Sequence record: OR896827.1
DNA length: 50,759 bases
Reading direction: 5' to 3' (one strand)
Origin: Escherichia phage MikeNSara
This document shows positions 40,960 through 50,183 of the stretch, one piece after another. The notes beneath the pieces are model-generated. The model had not been told where the DNA came from, made no database searches, and saw nothing but the letters and a program-made list of their open reading frames with translations. The position numbers were made by a program, and so were the translations under genes. How positions within the stretch are numbered: position 1 is the stretch's first letter; each line of letters starts with the position of its first letter.

Positions 40960-41298
40960 ACCTATATAATACATTGAAAAATAAGGATTATTTATTTATA
41001 TGTATCTATATATTCTCTTTTGTTATCTTGGTTATTGTGGTATTTGGTGGGGGTATATAGTTTTTGTGTATCTGTATGTGTGTATGGGTATGTAGGGGCA
41101 TATATATCTATATGGCACTTTCCGCGAGAAAACTTCGATAACAGGCAATGATAACATTGATTTATAAGGAAAAATAACGCCTATATTGTTATTGTGCCAC
41201 CATATAAAATTGATAAAACACGCGGGAACAAGAAAAAACAGTTGACACATTAAATAGCATTATTGATAATGCCCACACCTAACAACCAGGAGGCAGAA
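40960..41298 (+). repeat. AT-rich control region, paralog B
   Basis: See paralog A; alternating purine-pyrimidine TG/TA tracts and A-tracts upstream of consensus sigma70 promoter. Confidence 0.6.
41242..41270 (+). promoter_or_regulatory. sigma70-type promoter (TTGACA-17-GATAAT) for rightward early operon
   Basis: Consensus -35, 17-bp spacer, GATAAT -10; A-tract upstream; ATG 41299 about 28 nt downstream. Confidence 0.65.
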
Positions 41299-42305: not shown

Positions 42306-42491
42306 ATGAAAACGAAATTAGCCCATAAATCAGAAATCAAGATCGGCGATACTGTGATTCACAACGGCGAGCTTAGAACGGTTGGCAAAGAGTCAATAAG
42401 CCACGATGAATTTATGGGGATCTTGTTGTTCGGTGACTCTTATCGTCTTGGTTACAAGATGGTTGAGCTTGTGGAAGAGGTAAAATTCTAA
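42306..42491 (+). CDS. hypothetical protein
   Basis: RBS AGGTGA. Confidence 0.5.
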   Translation: MKTKLAHKSEIKIGDTVIHNGELRTVGKESISHDEFMGILLFGDSYRLGYKMVELVEEVKF

Positions 42492-42589: not shown

Positions 42590-43480
42590 ATGTTAAAACT
42601 TACTGACATTAAATTCCCGATCACCTTCGAATCTCGCGGCGTTGGTCATTTCATGTTTACAGACGAGAAGACATGCACTAAGTTTAACGAATACGGAAGT
42701 CCAAACGCTTCAACAATGGAGATTGAACACTTCATTGAAGCGCACAATAAACACTACAACTCACTCAGAGACTACGGTTACGCAATGCCAGGCTACACCT
42801 GTTTCCACTACAAGCCATATAAAGGCCAGGTGTTGCCAGTGCGCTCACCGGAACGCGCAGAGATTCCGATGGTCAATATGAAAACCTGCGACTACAAAAA
42901 GCTGTGGTGCTTAAGTGTGGACAATATCAAGTATCCGATCACGTTCCACACGACTGGTAAGTCAACGATTCGCTACACATCACGCGACAATGGCGTTTAT
43001 AGCGATGGTACGAAATCAGAGTTGAAAGTTGATTTCTTTGTCAACGGTCACAACAAATTCAATCCGCACAACGAAGAGGATAAAGTGTACTACGTGGAAG
43101 ACATTACAAAACACTTGTTTGGAGAAACTCCATTCGGCGGCGGAAAGACGTCAATTCAAAAAATCATTGGCGAGGAGATCCACAAAGCGGCTGCCGAAAT
43201 GAAAGCGCCTGGAGGCTGGCGTATTGATAAGAGCGCCTTTGCAAATCAAGAAATCGTAACGCAGGGCGCGATTGAAGATATGCCAGTTGCAGCCACGCTA
43301 AAAGGAGTCCGGCTTGATGATGGTGTGTGGTTTGAATTAACGGCTACACCAAAGACGATCGAGATTCATGATGATGTTGTTATCCTCCTGCTTCACTACG
43401 GCGGCACTAAAAATCGGACTGTTGCAGGTGAGATCAGCATCAAGCGCGGAACGATGGTTAAGTGGAAGGTAAAGATTTGA
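42590..43480 (+). CDS. hypothetical protein with internal tandem duplication
   Basis: RBS AGGAG; two ~55-aa modules share IK(F/Y)PITF ... F(I/V).(A/G)HNK pattern. Confidence 0.55.
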   Translation: MLKLTDIKFPITFESRGVGHFMFTDEKTCTKFNEYGSPNASTMEIEHFIEAHNKHYNSLRDYGYAMPGYTCFHYKPYKGQVLPVRSPERAEIPMVNMKTCDYKKLWCLSVDNIKYPITFHTTGKSTIRYTSRDNGVYSDGTKSELKVDFFVNGHNKFNPHNEEDKVYYVEDITKHLFGETPFGGGKTSIQKIIGEEIHKAAAEMKAPGGWRIDKSAFANQEIVTQGAIEDMPVAATLKGVRLDDGVWFELTATPKTIEIHDDVVILLLHYGGTKNRTVAGEISIKRGTMVKWKVKI

Positions 43481-43709: not shown

Positions 43710-43748
43710 CACTTTTTGTTAAAACTCAAATGTGGGGCCAGGTATAAT
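43706..43748 (+). promoter_or_regulatory. motif-type promoter cassette
   Basis: Canonical 20-mer, 17-bp spacer, TATAAT; gene 43779 downstream. Confidence 0.55.
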
Positions 43749-43778
43749 GGCCTCACTTTCAACGAAGGAGATCAAACG

Positions 43779-43997
43779 ATGTACATTAAAAAGAAGATGA
43801 AATGCGTTTCCGTTAACTATGCTTGCTCTGGCATGTTCAAGCCTGGCGAAATCTATACGGCGCAAAAACTGAAATCATCAACCGGATCTTTTTACGTGAG
43901 CAATAGTAAGGGGCATCGCATGTTCCTGAACGGCGGCGAAGGCACTAAGGTTATGGCACACGCTATGGTAATGGCTGAATTTGAGGAAGTGAAATAA
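43779..43997 (+). CDS. hypothetical protein
   Basis: Start moved to ATG 43779 with RBS AAGGAG, ~30 nt after motif promoter. Confidence 0.5.
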   Translation: MYIKKKMKCVSVNYACSGMFKPGEIYTAQKLKSSTGSFYVSNSKGHRMFLNGGEGTKVMAHAMVMAEFEEVK

Positions 43998-43999
43998 TC

Positions 44000-44209
44000 A
44001 TGGACCAGAACAAAACAGCAAAATATAAATTCACTGACGACTACGGAGACACTATCGACGTTTATCAGCGTGGGAATCAGATCTTTATAGATGGCACTTT
44101 CGAATATGGCCGGATGCCAGACTTTCGGGGAATACTTTCGGCAGATAGCGCGCGACGCATGGCGAACGTGTTAAATAAACTGGCGGCAAAGATTGAGGCG
44201 ATGCAATGA
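44000..44209 (+). CDS. hypothetical protein
   Basis: ORF immediately after upstream stop. Confidence 0.45.
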   Translation: MDQNKTAKYKFTDDYGDTIDVYQRGNQIFIDGTFEYGRMPDFRGILSADSARRMANVLNKLAAKIEAMQ

Positions 44210-44742
44210 AAAAATACACTTTCGAACTGTGGGGCAAGAAGTACGAATTAATGACCAGTAAGCCGATTGTTATCGTTGACCTGGACGGCACACTATCGGA
44301 CGGATCGCATCGTTTGCATTTGCTGCCAACTGAAAACTTGCACCTTACGGAATCGTGGCGCGAGTTTAACAGGGTCGCCGCCGGAGATTCACCTATTAAA
44401 AGCACTATCGCGGTTATTAACGGTTTATGGGTGTCGGGATTTGCCATCGTCATCTTGACCGGACGCAGCGACGAGGTTCGCTATGAAACCTGCAAATGGT
44501 TGAATGAGAACGGCGTGAAGTTTGACGAAATCATCATGCGCCGCCAGGAGGACAACCGAAAGGATACGGTTATTAAAGAAGAAGCCTTGCGCGCTATTGG
44601 CCTGGACAACATTGTTTGCGCCTTTGACGATTCGCCTAACGTGGTTAAGCACTTCCGCAGCTTGGGGGTCACAACCTATCAGGTCACGGAATACGACAAG
44701 CCACACGCTCACATACAATCTCACGGCGTGGAGAAATTATAA
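44206..44742 (+). CDS. HAD-superfamily phosphatase (T4 Pnk phosphatase-domain-like)
   Basis: HAD motif I VIVDLDGTL, motif II ILTGR, C-terminal FDDSP; overall pattern resembles the 3'-phosphatase domain of T4 polynucleotide kinase (from memory). Confidence 0.6.
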   Translation: MKKYTFELWGKKYELMTSKPIVIVDLDGTLSDGSHRLHLLPTENLHLTESWREFNRVAAGDSPIKSTIAVINGLWVSGFAIVILTGRSDEVRYETCKWLNENGVKFDEIIMRRQEDNRKDTVIKEEALRAIGLDNIVCAFDDSPNVVKHFRSLGVTTYQVTEYDKPHAHIQSHGVEKL

Positions 44743-44934
44743 ATGGCTGACTTTATGCATCAAATGATTGTTGTATTTAAGGGCAGTGAAGATGAAGAGG
44801 TTCGCGAATGCTTCACCATTGAGAAATCATACAGCGCATCTTTAACCAGTTTTGGCAACATATCTATGATTGATGATAATGGCGATCCGTGGATTTTTGA
44901 AGATGATACGGATTGCTTTGAGATTAAAGAATAG
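44743..44934 (+). CDS. hypothetical acidic protein
   Basis: RBS GGAG; strongly acidic 63-aa product; stop is TAG of motif. Confidence 0.45.
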   Translation: MADFMHQMIVVFKGSEDEEVRECFTIEKSYSASLTSFGNISMIDDNGDPWIFEDDTDCFEIKE

Positions 44935-44974
44935 CACTTTTTGCAAAAACAGATTATCGGGCTTGCGGTATAGT
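44931..44974 (+). promoter_or_regulatory. motif-type promoter cassette
   Basis: ATAGCACTTTTTGCAAAAAC, 18-bp spacer, TATAGT; gene 45006 downstream. Confidence 0.55.
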
Positions 44975-45005
44975 AAGCCCATCGACAACGAAAGAGGAAA
45001 CGGCG

Positions 45006-45305
45006 ATGTTAGTACGCAATGCGATGTATAAAATCAAATCTGATGAGCGTGTCCACCTGTTTCATGTGAACGAGCACGGCGACCTTTCGATCGCGATGTA
45101 CCGTAACGACCGAGGCGGTTGCGAGGAATCAATAGGCGGTAAAGTGCATCCAATGTTTTTCATGTTCCGCCACAAGGCCGATCAATACAGCCATCACAAC
45201 CACTGGATCGGTGACTTGCTGCAATATGGGAAATTGGTTGCGTCGCACGTTGTAGATCCTGGCAAGTTAACCAGCCGCCAGCTTCGCAAAATGGCGCGCA
45301 AATAG
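45006..45305 (+). CDS. hypothetical protein
   Basis: RBS GAGGAA; downstream of motif promoter 44931..44974. Confidence 0.5.
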   Translation: MLVRNAMYKIKSDERVHLFHVNEHGDLSIAMYRNDRGGCEESIGGKVHPMFFMFRHKADQYSHHNHWIGDLLQYGKLVASHVVDPGKLTSRQLRKMARK

Positions 45306-45345
45306 CACTTTTTGTTAAAATCAACTTTACGGCCTGCGGTATAGT
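45302..45345 (+). promoter_or_regulatory. motif-type promoter cassette
   Basis: ATAGCACTTTTTGTTAAAAT, 18-bp spacer, TATAGT; gene 45377 downstream. Confidence 0.55.
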
Positions 45346-45376
45346 AGGCCCATCAACAACAAACGAGGATTAAATC

Positions 45377-45640
45377 ATGGCTAACAAGATCGAGTTTTTT
45401 AAAGCGGTAGACATTATTGATGGCGCGCCTAGCTTCTTCGCTATCCATTCTATTGACGGCAAGGATATTGGGTACAACGTTATCCGTCGAGATGGAATAT
45501 CAAAACTTAGTGACCTGGTAGGCCATATTGTGTCAATCGGGAAATGCGCATGGCCCGATTCGCCACGAGAGCCGCGCCGCCGCGACATGATTAATCCTGA
45601 ATTGCTTTACACGCTGGTAGTAGAGGGAGAAAATAAATGA
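45377..45640 (+). CDS. hypothetical protein
   Basis: RBS GAGGA; downstream of motif promoter 45302..45345. Confidence 0.5.
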   Translation: MANKIEFFKAVDIIDGAPSFFAIHSIDGKDIGYNVIRRDGISKLSDLVGHIVSIGKCAWPDSPREPRRRDMINPELLYTLVVEGENK

Positions 45641-45822
45641 TTTGGTTACTTGCTTTTTTGGTTGTTTTTCTTTACATTTCAGGCTTGTTTACGTTCCGCG
45701 CGTTGGTGAAATATTCTGACGCGACAGACAAAGACGATAAAATCGTTCTCGCTTTCTGGTTTGTTTGGGTGTGGTTAGCAATTTACGAGATCATCAGAGA
45801 CAAACAGAAATTTGAGTGGTGA
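45637..45822 (+). CDS. hypothetical membrane protein
   Basis: ATGA overlap; two hydrophobic helices. Confidence 0.45.
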   Translation: MIWLLAFLVVFLYISGLFTFRALVKYSDATDKDDKIVLAFWFVWVWLAIYEIIRDKQKFEW

Positions 45823-45878
45823 TTCTTGCTATGGCGCATTCATGCAGTGCGCCATGTTGAGAAAACCTAAAGGGGGAA

Positions 45879-46031
45879 ATGATGCGTAACTTTGAAAAAA
45901 TCATTACCAAAAAGAAGCGTCGCGGGTACGATGAGCATGTGGAGCTTGTGAAAAAGCAACGCAAGAAGCGCAACGAAGACAAGAAGCGCGGGAAAAAATT
46001 TAATGCGATTTTTCGCTATGGAGGAAACTAA
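45879..46031 (+). CDS. hypothetical small basic protein (50 aa)
   Basis: Not in ORF track; RBS AAGGGGGA; K/R-rich. Confidence 0.35.
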   Translation: MMRNFEKIITKKKRRGYDEHVELVKKQRKKRNEDKKRGKKFNAIFRYGGN

Positions 46032-46223
46032 ATGCAATTGCCACCATTTAACGAAAAAAGCGAAGAGATTGCCAAAACTGCATGTCACCTTCGAGAGCTT
46101 GCCGACATGATAGAGCGCGGTCAGGTTATGATTGTCAATATGACTATCAAAAGCGAGAATAGAAATTTCAAGGTTTTAAGCGAGACAACAGAAATTACCG
46201 TCTTGAAAGCAAGGGGAGAGTAA
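46032..46223 (+). CDS. hypothetical protein
   Basis: TAAATG junction with previous small ORF. Confidence 0.45.
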   Translation: MQLPPFNEKSEEIAKTACHLRELADMIERGQVMIVNMTIKSENRNFKVLSETTEITVLKARGE

Positions 46224-46225
46224 TC

Positions 46226-46816
46226 ATGAAACGAGACATTATCATCCTTAATGGGCCTCCAGGTTGCGGGAAGGACACTATTGCAGCTTACCTAACAGGC
46301 CATCGTTACCCAGCGGTTAAGGCATCATTCAAGCAACCTATGTTCGACATTGCTTTTTCTATGCTTGGCCCGACTCGATACGATGAATTTATGGACCTGT
46401 ACAACGACCGAGAGCAAAAAGAAAAGCCTCAAGTTATCTTAGGCGGCAAGTCACCTCGACAATTCATGATCTGGATTAGCGAGGATGTAATGAAGCCAGT
46501 TTTTGGAGATCACTATTTCGGGCGTCGAATGGTTGAAGAGATTCACGAGATGTACCGAGATTTGGAGGTTGTGATCAGTGATGGCGGATTCCCCGAAGAA
46601 ATCAAGCCGCTCGTTAAGGCGGGGCATGAGGTGCATATTTGCCGATTGCATCGAGACGGCTTCACGTTTGCTGGCGATTCGAGAGACTACATTGACCTGA
46701 GCGGTTATCACTATCGAATCCATCACTATGATTTCCACTTGCAGGACGGTAAGCCGGAACTGGCTGTAAGCGAGATCGTCAATGCAGTCAAATGGAAGCA
46801 CACACAGATTAAATAG
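46226..46816 (+). CDS. P-loop nucleotide kinase (dNMP-kinase-like)
   Basis: Walker A GPPGCGKDT at N-terminus; overall pattern reminiscent of T4 gp1 dNMP kinase (from memory); RBS GGGGAGAG; stop is TAG of motif. Confidence 0.6.
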   Translation: MKRDIIILNGPPGCGKDTIAAYLTGHRYPAVKASFKQPMFDIAFSMLGPTRYDEFMDLYNDREQKEKPQVILGGKSPRQFMIWISEDVMKPVFGDHYFGRRMVEEIHEMYRDLEVVISDGGFPEEIKPLVKAGHEVHICRLHRDGFTFAGDSRDYIDLSGYHYRIHHYDFHLQDGKPELAVSEIVNAVKWKHTQIK

Positions 46817-48182: not shown

Positions 48183-48395
48183 ATGAAAATCAAAATCACC
48201 AAAATCGACACCATCAACGGCGACGGATCAATCACTCTTGAGCAATGCGGTTTGGTTGTTGGTGATGTGCTGGAAGTTGATGGACATTTCAGCGACGGAT
48301 CTTATTGTGTTATTGCGCCGCGTAACAGCGAGTTTATCAAGGCTGGCGACAATATTAGTGTTAACCATGACGAATGCGAGGTAGTAGAAGAATGA
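48183..48395 (+). CDS. hypothetical acidic protein
   Basis: RBS GAGGAAAG; downstream of motif promoter; net strongly acidic. Confidence 0.5.
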   Translation: MKIKITKIDTINGDGSITLEQCGLVVGDVLEVDGHFSDGSYCVIAPRNSEFIKAGDNISVNHDECEVVEE

Positions 48396-50157: not shown

Positions 50158-50183
50158 TCACCCGCCGCACGGCGGGTTTTTTA
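50158..50183 (+). terminator. intrinsic terminator before terminase small subunit gene
   Basis: CCCGCCG-CA-CGGCGGG plus T6. Confidence 0.7.

What the first reader, a model, noticed from the sequence alone, without database searches (positions are those of the whole stretch)
44206..46816. HAD phosphatase resembling the T4 Pnk phosphatase domain, plus a separate dNMP-kinase-like P-loop kinase
44206..44742 carries HAD motifs (DLDGTL, ILTGR, FDDSP) in a pattern I recall from the 3'-phosphatase domain of T4 polynucleotide kinase. 46226..46816 has an N-terminal GPPGCGKDT P-loop resembling T4 gp1 dNMP kinase. Together they point to nucleotide salvage or nucleic-acid end-healing in the early program. 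No RNA ligase motif (KxDG) was seen, so a full tRNA-repair system is not supported.
Basis: inference. Interest (0 to 1): 0.45.

Follow-up and report, generated by a model that had tools for sequence, protein, structure and literature searches.

The report
Linked phage phosphatase and nucleotide-kinase genes
A T1-like coliphage carries a stand-alone copy of the phosphatase half of T4 polynucleotide kinase and a separate kinase resembling T4 dNMP kinase; both genes are already routinely annotated in related phages, but they prove to be a conserved linked pair (adjacent, overlapping or even fused elsewhere), most likely helping the phage recycle host DNA into building blocks.

Summary

The window is a T1-like coliphage (Drexlerviridae, Warwickvirus) 95-98% identical to published phages that already label these genes 'polynucleotide kinase' and 'dNMP kinase'.

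New here: the two genes are a coupled pair. The kinase follows the phosphatase in 76 of 80 related loci, with stop/start overlap in the four junctions inspected. The pair recurs in an unrelated podophage, beside the nuclease genes. Three metagenomic protein clusters are single-chain phosphatase-kinase fusions.

Best reading (about 0.5): a host-DNA salvage module. Main rival (about 0.22): a Pnkp-like end-healing enzyme built with a different kinase. Nothing has been tested biochemically. Ordinary overall; modest interest.

The parts
44206..44742 (+). ORF A, 178 aa: a stand-alone HAD (DxDxT) phosphatase of the T4 Pnkp 3'-phosphatase type. It has no kinase domain.
   Evidence: Pfam HAD_PNKP at 76 bits against a cut-off of 27.6. 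PHROG 415 at 3.5e-65. Top Foldseek hit is 5UJ0, the T4 Pnkp phosphatase. T4 residues D165/D167/T169/R176/S211/R213/D254/K258/D277/D278 align with D25/D27/T29/R36/T85/R87/D120/K124/D141/D142.
46226..46816 (+). ORF B, 196 aa: a P-loop (GPPGCGKDT) NMP-kinase-fold kinase. It resembles T4 gp1 in fold but lies outside the curated Pfam DNMK family.
44743..44934 (+). A 63-aa ORF starting at the base after the phosphatase stop codon. It is homologous to a roughly 58-aa C-terminal domain that is fused in frame to the phosphatase in 97-98% identical relatives.
   Evidence: Homologs P0001 and P0029 (237 aa) and P0006 (264 aa) carry the extension. blastp of the P0001 C-terminus against this ORF gives E 2e-4. 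PHROG 11551, function unknown.
45006..46223 (+). Five small ORFs (99, 87, 61, 50 and 63 aa) lying between the two partner genes. They look like an insertion into an ancestrally adjacent pair and are not themselves part of the module.
   Evidence: All belong to PHROGs of unknown function. In 30 of 80 related loci the two partner genes abut with nothing between them, and spacing elsewhere ranges from 12 to 2171 nt. No + strand terminator-like site lies between the two genes.

Best explanation
The two genes form a functionally coupled phosphatase-kinase module of phage DNA-precursor metabolism. ORF A is a Mg-dependent DxDxT acyl-phosphatase built like the 3'-phosphatase half of T4 Pnkp. By inference it removes 3'-phosphates from DNA ends or from 3'-phosphorylated nucleotides that arise while the host chromosome is broken down. 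ORF B is an ATP-dependent kinase with the fold of T4 dNMP kinase. By inference it converts the released 5'-dNMPs to dNDPs, which host nucleoside-diphosphate kinase then takes to dNTPs. T1-like phages degrade the host chromosome and reuse its nucleotides, and they encode no ribonucleotide reductase or thymidylate synthase, so salvage is the obvious need for such a kinase. What is shown: the family and fold assignments, the conservation of catalytic residues, the genetic coupling, and the placement next to nuclease genes. What is inferred: the actual substrates and the salvage role.
For: ORF A is a Pnkp-type phosphatase by profile, fold and residue conservation. The roles of the T4 residues, and activity of T4 Pnkp on the mononucleotide 3'-TMP, are taken from PMC3592404.

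gp1 residues K14/D15/T16, R68, R132, M135 and R197 have counterparts K16/D17/T18, R62, R78, M81 and R140 (using the residue list in PMC10653934; R78 and M81 are placed by my re-registration of the S-x-R-x-h-M motif). No acidic general base follows strand 2, as a hydroxyl kinase would need. The family has an invariant K36 there, and a DGGFP motif like the DGFPR of adenylate kinase (inference).

The genes are coupled. The kinase lies downstream on the same strand in 76 of 80 T1-like loci, abutting the phosphatase in 30 of them, with an ATGA overlap in the four junctions inspected. The same pair, with a 4-nt overlap, occurs in Aeromonas phage Ahp1 (Autographiviridae), one gene downstream of exonuclease and endonuclease VII. 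Three fusion clusters exist: P0259, P0387 and P0266.

The biological need is documented. T1 and TLS degrade the host chromosome and reuse its nucleotides, and the genes responsible are unidentified (PMC11447400). A relative's annotated genome lists no RNR, ThyA, polymerase or ligase. The KanT1 authors independently suggest a role in nucleotide supply (PMC13164509). A gp1-like kinase supplies all thymidylate kinase activity in P. putida (PMC10653934). One structural relative of the kinase is fused to a nucleoside 2-deoxyribosyltransferase, a nucleotide-metabolism enzyme.
Against: No member of either subfamily has been assayed. ORF B fails the curated Pfam DNMK model, and the family HMM does not detect T4 gp1. 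Two of the four gp1 dNMP-phosphate ligands, K37 and R177, have no aligned counterpart. A 3'-phosphatase and a 5'-dNMP kinase do not catalyse obviously consecutive steps, so the reason for fusing them is less clear under this reading than under an end-healing reading. The fusion order, phosphatase then kinase, is the same as in mammalian PNKP. The phosphatase model is weak in residues 29-62 (pLDDT below 50), so nothing can be said about its substrate groove. Either gene can occur without the other: the phosphatase alone in Drulisvirus and LIMElight, and the kinase alone in Kuravirus.
Confidence: 0.5

Rival explanations
1. The pair is a non-orthologous Pnkp, that is, a nucleic-acid end-healing enzyme. 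ORF A converts 3'-phosphate (or 2',3'-cyclic phosphate) ends to 3'-OH. ORF B, despite its gp1-like fold, phosphorylates 5'-OH polynucleotide ends. Host DNA ligase LigA (or a phage ligase in podophages) can then reseal phage DNA or RNA cut by host nucleases.
For: A single-chain fusion of a Pnkp-type phosphatase with a P-loop kinase is exactly the PNKP logic of two activities acting on the two ends of one break. Three fusion clusters exist. The phosphatase-then-kinase order matches mammalian PNKP (my own knowledge). Translational coupling is seen in many phages. ORF B fails the curated DNMK model and lacks gp1's K37 and R177. The phosphatase keeps every catalytic residue of an enzyme whose physiological substrate is a polynucleotide end. 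The pair is placed next to recombination and repair nucleases.
Confidence: 0.22
2. The two enzymes have independent functions and are only neighbours within a DNA-metabolism gene block. On this reading the kinase is a dNMP kinase, the phosphatase does something unrelated, and the fusions are rare accidents.
For: In the window they are 1.5 kb apart, separated by six small ORFs. Each occurs alone in some phage groups. Only three fusion clusters were found among about 4100 kinase representatives.
Against: The order and strand are conserved in 76 of 80 loci, and a stop/start overlap was seen in the four abutting junctions inspected. The pair recurs in an unrelated phage family. The fused form has persisted through divergence to 37% identity.
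Confidence: 0.13
3. The module is a counter-defence device. It would act on a phosphorylated small molecule such as an immune signalling nucleotide, or it would reshape nucleotide pools against host nucleotide-depletion defences.
For: The genes sit among small early ORFs of the kind that often encode host-takeover or anti-defence functions. HAD phosphatases and NMP-fold kinases are versatile in substrate.
Against: There is no positive evidence. PADLOC was not searched, so no anti-defence library was consulted. In other phages the pair sits in the replication and nuclease module, not among accessory genes. The catalytic residues match a nucleic-acid 3'-phosphatase.
Confidence: 0.08

Closest known systems
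T4 polynucleotide kinase-phosphatase (Pnkp, PseT), C-terminal 3'-phosphatase domain (PDB 1LTQ, 2IA5, 5UJ0)
   Same: It has the same DxDxT acyl-phosphatase fold and belongs to the same Pfam family. The nucleophile, general acid, phosphate-binding Ser/Thr and Lys, and Mg-binding Asp pair are all conserved.
   Different: ORF A is a stand-alone 178-aa protein with no N-terminal Pnk kinase domain. It is 25-28% identical to the T4 domain. It has a family-conserved 15-residue insertion after R36 and a conserved C-terminal tail. It has no RNA ligase partner in the genome. The GenBank label 'polynucleotide kinase' is therefore a misnomer.
T4 gp1 deoxynucleoside monophosphate kinase (PDB 1DEK/1DEL; Pfam PF21448 DNMK)
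   Different: Identity is only 16%. ORF B is 45 residues shorter and lacks gp1's insertion at about residues 97-131. It does not reach the PF21448 threshold, and the family HMM does not find gp1. K37 and R177 are not conserved.
Mammalian PNKP and other bifunctional phosphatase-kinase end-healing enzymes
   Same: The domain order is HAD phosphatase followed by P-loop kinase. This matches the gene order here and the natural fusions P0259, P0387 and P0266.
   Different: The kinase module of PNKP enzymes is of the Pnk type. Here it is gp1-like. There is no FHA domain. Activity on polynucleotides is untested.
T7 gp1.7 and T5 Dnk (phage dNMP kinases that feed dNMPs into dNTP synthesis)
   Same: The proposed physiological role is the same: rephosphorylating dNMPs during infection. 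In Ahp1 the pair lies next to homologues of the nucleases that T7 uses to degrade host DNA (the T7 biology is from my own knowledge).
   Different: No sequence relationship was tested. I did not find T5 dnk in the stretch of the T5 genome I fetched. T7 gp1.7 has no P-loop (my own knowledge).
Pseudomonas putida PP_1964 (dNMPK_Pp)
   Same: It is a gp1-like kinase of probable viral origin, with thymidylate kinase function demonstrated in vivo (PMC10653934).
   Different: It is a chromosomal bacterial gene. It retains more of the gp1 pocket residues, including K38 and R200, than ORF B does.

Membership tests
Pnkp-type HAD 3'-phosphatase (Pfam PF25109 HAD_PNKP; DxDxT acyl-phosphatases) | Score above the curated Pfam gathering threshold | tested here: met
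   76 bits against a cut-off of 27.6, E 4.2e-21, covering profile positions 3-140 of 143.
Pnkp-type HAD 3'-phosphatase (Pfam PF25109 HAD_PNKP; DxDxT acyl-phosphatases) | DxDxT motif with a nucleophile Asp and a general acid-base Asp (T4 D165, D167) | tested here: met
   D25-L-D27-G-T29 aligns with T4 D165-V-D167-G-T169 and is invariant across the family alignment. The residue roles are from PMC3592404.
Pnkp-type HAD 3'-phosphatase (Pfam PF25109 HAD_PNKP; DxDxT acyl-phosphatases) | Phosphate-contacting Ser/Thr and Lys (T4 S211, K258) and the Mg-binding acidic pair (T4 D277, D278) | tested here: met
   T85, K124, D141 and D142 align with these residues. R36, R87 and D120 also match T4 R176, R213 and D254.
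Pnkp-type HAD 3'-phosphatase (Pfam PF25109 HAD_PNKP; DxDxT acyl-phosphatases) | Fold closest to the Pnkp phosphatase domain rather than to other HAD families | tested here: met
   The top 18 Foldseek PDB hits are all T4 Pnkp or Pnkp1 chains, with 5UJ0 best at E 1.6e-7. Other HAD proteins score lower. Caveat: the model's mean pLDDT is 74, and it is poor in residues 29-62.
Pnkp-type HAD 3'-phosphatase (Pfam PF25109 HAD_PNKP; DxDxT acyl-phosphatases) | 3'-phosphomonoesterase activity on nucleic-acid ends or on 3'-nucleotides | not testable with these tools
   This requires an enzyme assay.
Bifunctional T4-type Pnkp / tRNA repair system | A Pnk-type 5'-kinase domain in the same protein or elsewhere in the genome | tested here: not met
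   ORF A is 178 aa and consists of the phosphatase only. tblastn with T4 Pnk residues 1-150 finds nothing in the window or in 80 related loci.
Bifunctional T4-type Pnkp / tRNA repair system | A partner RNA ligase (Rnl1 or Rnl2) | tested here: not met
   There is no T4 RnlA homolog in the window or in the related loci. No ligase is annotated in a complete relative. Rnl2 was not searched separately.
T4 gp1 dNMP kinase family (Pfam PF21448 DNMK) | Score above the curated Pfam gathering threshold | tested here: not met
   ORF B gives no PF21448 hit at E up to 1. Its homologs in Ahp1 and SU10 and the fusion P0387 give none either, whereas T4 gp1 scores 358 bits.
T4 gp1 dNMP kinase family (Pfam PF21448 DNMK) | gp1-type fold (P-loop core plus helical NMP-binding domain) | tested here: met
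T4 gp1 dNMP kinase family (Pfam PF21448 DNMK) | Same remote-homology cluster as gp1 | tested here: met
   ORF B hits PHROG 139 at 1.7e-50 over profile positions 81-261. T4 gp1 hits it at 1.8e-65 over positions 83-261.
T4 gp1 dNMP kinase family (Pfam PF21448 DNMK) | ATP-site residues (P-loop K14, D15, T16; R197) | tested here: met
   K16, D17, T18 and R140 align with these residues and are invariant in the family.
T4 gp1 dNMP kinase family (Pfam PF21448 DNMK) | dNMP phosphate ligands K37, R68, R132 and R177 | tested here: inconclusive
   R62 and R78 correspond to R68 and R132. K37 aligns with F40 and R177 with G121 or F122, although an invariant K36 lies nearby. The C-terminal half of the alignment has low confidence.
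T4 gp1 dNMP kinase family (Pfam PF21448 DNMK) | dNMP kinase activity | not testable with these tools
   This requires an enzyme assay or complementation of tmk, gmk or cmk mutants.
Pnk-type polynucleotide 5'-hydroxyl kinases | Homology beyond the P-loop, and the general-base Asp (T4 D35) with R38 | tested here: not met

The most novel reading that the evidence does not exclude
The phosphatase plus gp1-fold kinase pair, together with its natural single-chain fusions, would be a previously unrecognised type of polynucleotide kinase-phosphatase. In it a gp1-like module has replaced the canonical Pnk kinase. It would heal 3'-phosphate and 5'-OH breaks in phage DNA or RNA made by host nucleases, so that host ligase can reseal them. 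If true, the 'dNMP kinase' label on at least the phosphatase-linked members of this large family (about 4100 clusters at 50% identity) would be wrong.
Probability: 0.2. Interest if true: 0.6.

Novelty: new member of a known kind. Interest (0 to 1): 0.3.

Why it matters
For this window the result is mainly a confirmation. Both genes are near-identical to genes already annotated in dozens of T1-like phages. Three things add modest value.

- The common GenBank label 'polynucleotide kinase' for ORF A is misleading, because the protein has only the phosphatase half.
- The 'dNMP kinase' label for ORF B rests on fold-level similarity alone, and the protein fails the curated gp1 model.
- The two genes are a conserved coupled unit, fused in rare cases. 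They should therefore be studied together, and at most one of the two current labels (polynucleotide versus mononucleotide substrate) is likely to describe the module's real job.

T1 and TLS are known to recycle the host chromosome, yet the genes responsible are unidentified (PMC11447400). This pair is a concrete candidate that can be tested cheaply.

Tried and rejected
- **Sequence searches for a gp1 link.** phmmer and a family-profile hmmsearch of ORF B against PDB sequences returned only P-loop matches and did not find 1DEK. The gp1 link therefore had to come from fold search and PHROGs.
- **Split T4-type Pnkp.** I considered that ORF B might be the missing Pnk kinase half. I rejected this as homology, because similarity to T4 Pnk stops at the P-loop. 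The functional analogue idea is kept as a rival.
- **Complete tRNA-repair system.** Rejected: no Pnk kinase or Rnl1 in the window or in 80 related loci, and no ligase annotated in a relative.
- **T5 Dnk as a characterised anchor.** I fetched T5 52-90 kb, but the gene is not in that stretch. I ran no further search on it.
- **Literature.** The search 'phage T1' plus 'kinase-phosphatase' gave nothing relevant. The retron Eco2 paper mentions PNK only as a reagent. The T4 gp1 structure paper (PubMed 8670851) is not held.
- **The 376-aa gene upstream of the adjacent pair in other T1-like phages.** Pfam shows only an N-terminal HTH. Its 'DNA repair exonuclease' label could not be confirmed.
- **Promoter and terminator scan.** Counts are no higher than in shuffled sequence. 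I used the scan only to note that no + strand terminator-like site lies between the two genes.
Full report
**What the window is.** The 4-kb region around the finding is 93-98% identical at the nucleotide level to published T1-like coliphages. These include SECphi27, FritzSarasin/Bas04, atuna, tonijn, tunus and vB_Eco_Sip. They are classified as Drexlerviridae, Tempevirinae, Warwickvirus. In those records the two genes carry various labels. One is called 'polynucleotide kinase', '3'-phosphatase, 5'-polynucleotide kinase' or 'putative kinase-phosphatase'. The other is called 'ATP-binding protein', 'P-loop NTPase' or 'dNMP kinase'.

**Checking the observation.** Both ORFs are present at exactly the stated coordinates on the + strand, with the quoted motifs.

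ORF A (44206..44742, 178 aa):
- Pfam PF25109 HAD_PNKP at 76 bits, against a cut-off of 27.6.
- PHROG 415 at 3.5e-65.
- Best PDB sequence matches are Pnkp1 and T4 Pnk.

ORF B (46226..46816, 196 aa):
- Only sub-threshold P-loop hits in Pfam and NCBIfam.
- PHROG 139 'deoxynucleoside monophosphate kinase' at 1.7e-50.

**The phosphatase in detail.** I fetched authentic T4 pseT and aligned its phosphatase domain with the ORF A family. T4 residues D165, D167, T169, R176, S211, R213, D254, K258, D277 and D278 align with D25, D27, T29, R36, T85, R87, D120, K124, D141 and D142.

Das and Shuman (PMC3592404) define the roles of these T4 residues. D165 is the covalent nucleophile and D167 the general acid-base. 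S211 and K258 contact the phosphate, and D278 is a Mg ligand. They also note that 3'-TMP is a substrate.

The AF2 model has mean pLDDT 74. It is good in the core and poor in residues 29-62 and 162-178. Its best Foldseek PDB hit is 5UJ0, the T4 Pnkp 3' phosphatase, followed by Pnkp1 and the other T4 Pnkp chains. Other HAD families score lower.

T4 Pnkp itself belongs to the two-domain PHROG 505, and only its C-terminal half hits ORF A's PHROG 415. ORF A is therefore a stand-alone Pnkp-type phosphatase with no kinase domain. 'Polynucleotide kinase' is a misnomer for it.

**The kinase in detail.** Sequence-only methods do not link ORF B to T4 gp1:
- phmmer and a 36-sequence family profile against PDB find only P-loops.
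- The family HMM does not detect gp1 even at E 10.
- ORF B and its homologs miss the curated Pfam DNMK model PF21448, which gp1 hits at 358 bits.

The link does appear at three other levels:
- *PHROG clustering.* T4 gp1 falls in PHROG 139 over the same profile span.
- *hhalign.* The alignment extends 74 columns into gp1, at 84% probability. Against T4 Pnk it covers only the 25 P-loop columns.

I then checked the 1DEK residues tabulated in PMC10653934 against a global hhalign. The ATP-site residues K14/D15/T16 and R197, and R68, have counterparts K16/D17/T18, R140 and R62. R132 and M135 correspond to R78 and M81 once the S-x-R-x-h-M motif is put in register; the printed alignment places R78 opposite gp1 I96, at the edge of a 36-residue gap. 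K37 and R177 have no aligned counterpart. No acidic general base of the T4 Pnk D35 type is present.

'dNMP-kinase-like' is the right strength of claim. ORF B works like a gp1-type nucleotide kinase as far as the fold can tell. It is not a member of the curated gp1 family.

**The new point: the two genes are a coupled pair.** I fetched 80 viral-contig loci that encode relatives of ORF A. The kinase lies downstream on the same strand in 76 of them:

| Arrangement of the two genes | Loci |
|---|---|
| Alignments abut | 30 |
| 12-199 nt apart | 14 |
| 490-2171 nt apart | 32 |
| No kinase found | 4 |

In the four abutting junctions that I inspected, the phosphatase stop codon overlaps the kinase start codon (…AAATGAAAA…). 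That is the classic sign of translational coupling. In the window's lineage, small ORFs of unknown function have been inserted between the two genes.

The pair is not confined to T1-like phages. In Aeromonas phage Ahp1 (Autographiviridae), gp26 and gp27 hit the phosphatase and kinase family HMMs at about 4e-43 and 4e-45. They overlap by 4 nt and lie one gene downstream of exonuclease and endonuclease VII, before the RNA polymerase gene.

An exhaustive profile search showed that the kinase family is large, with about 4100 representatives at 50% clustering. It includes single-chain fusions:
- P0259, 403 aa, with HAD_PNKP at residues 3-142 and the kinase at 211-394.
- P0266, 461 aa.
- P0387, 413 aa.

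These appear. P0259 is encoded on a 60.8-kb phage contig and was recovered from two samples. The three fusions are 37-74% identical to each other, and their halves are 42-50% identical to ORF A and ORF B. The fused form is therefore real and has been maintained through divergence.

The coupling is not obligatory. Drulisvirus and LIMElight podophages carry the phosphatase alone in the same slot after endonuclease VII. Kuravirus carries the kinase alone, next to an exonuclease.

**Context that bears on function.** The window holds one copy of each gene. It has no Pnk-type kinase, gp1 or Rnl1 homolog. A complete annotated relative has no ligase, DNA polymerase, ribonucleotide reductase or thymidylate synthase.

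T1 and TLS are documented to degrade the host chromosome and reuse its nucleotides, and the genes responsible are unidentified. TLS gp09 and gp14 are the same two genes (PMC11447400). The KanT1 authors noticed both kinase-labelled genes downstream of the exonuclease in many Drexlerviridae and suggested that they enhance nucleotide supply (PMC13164509).

**Interpretation.** Ribonucleotide reductase produces dNDPs directly. A phage without RNR or ThyA therefore needs extra dNMP kinase capacity mainly to handle dNMPs released from degraded DNA (established biochemistry; inference for this phage). That, the gp1-like fold, the position beside nucleases and the known physiology of T1 make a host-DNA salvage module the best reading. 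I give it about 0.5.

The phosphatase's part is the least certain step. It could clear 3'-phosphates that would block exonucleases or polymerases, or it could convert 3',5'-bisphosphates to 5'-dNMPs.

The main rival takes the fusion architecture at face value. On that reading the module is a Pnkp-like end-healing enzyme, in which a gp1-fold module serves as the 5'-kinase and a host or phage ligase does the sealing. I give it about 0.22. The fold and the absence of a general base argue against it, but they cannot exclude it. Mere neighbourhood (about 0.13) and a counter-defence role (about 0.08) are less likely.

**Verdict.** The genes are ordinary, already-annotated components of T1-like phages. 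What this analysis adds is:
- two corrected labels;
- a failed curated-family test for the kinase;
- evidence that the two genes form one functional unit.

Neither subfamily has been characterised biochemically, so the substrates remain inferred.

Noticed in passing
window 44740-44934; proteins P0001, P0029, P0006, P0034: There is a gene fusion/fission polymorphism at the 3' end of the phosphatase gene. In 97-98% identical relatives the phosphatase continues in frame into a roughly 58-aa domain, giving proteins of 236-237 aa. That domain is homologous to the separate 63-aa ORF 44743..44934 here (blastp E 2e-4). Some variants also carry a Cys-rich, zinc-ribbon-like insert (206 and 264 aa forms).
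   Followed up: partly
window 42306-42491, 43716-43997, 44743-44934, 48183-48395: By eye, several small + strand ORFs in this early-type region seem to share the flavour of one small beta-rich domain, with patterns such as (I/V)xVxxxG...DDxGxxW. They may be a paralogous family. No alignment was run.
   Followed up: no
window 42590-43480: This 296-aa ORF upstream of the pair contains an internal repeat (IKFPITFESRGVGHFMFTD and IKYPITFHTTGKSTIRYTS). It is annotated only as hypothetical in relatives.
   Followed up: no
one search hit statistics (phage collection): Nine records named 'Campylobacter phage' (host C. jejuni) match this coliphage region by megablast. Near-identical nucleotide sequence is unexpected for Campylobacter phages. 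It may reflect T1-like contamination or mislabelled records.
   Followed up: no
BFVD hits A0A7S6HV70 and A0A6J5RPH7: One structural relative of the kinase, in Escherichia phage JEP1, is 518 aa and is annotated as containing a DOD-type homing endonuclease domain, which may be an intein inside the kinase gene. Another relative is fused to a nucleoside 2-deoxyribosyltransferase-like domain.
   Followed up: no
window 50160-50177: A strong bidirectional terminator-like hairpin (7-bp stem, 6 GC pairs, with T-runs on both strands) lies near the right end of the window. It may close the long rightward block of small genes that begins after a near-consensus promoter-like site at 41242-41270.
   Followed up: no
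L089 4689-5582 (Kuravirus SU10 gp030): The Kuravirus homolog of the kinase is 297 aa. It has an N-terminal extension of about 100 aa with no Pfam match, and it lies next to an exonuclease gene.
   Followed up: partly
ORF A residues 30-62 and 162-178 (window about 44293-44391 and 44689-44739): Two segments of the phosphatase are strongly conserved across the family, including in the fused proteins, yet are predicted with very low confidence. They are HRLHLLPTxxLHLTESWxEFN and the C-terminal ...SHGV(E/D)K tail. They could form a substrate-specificity flap and a partner-binding tail.
   Followed up: no
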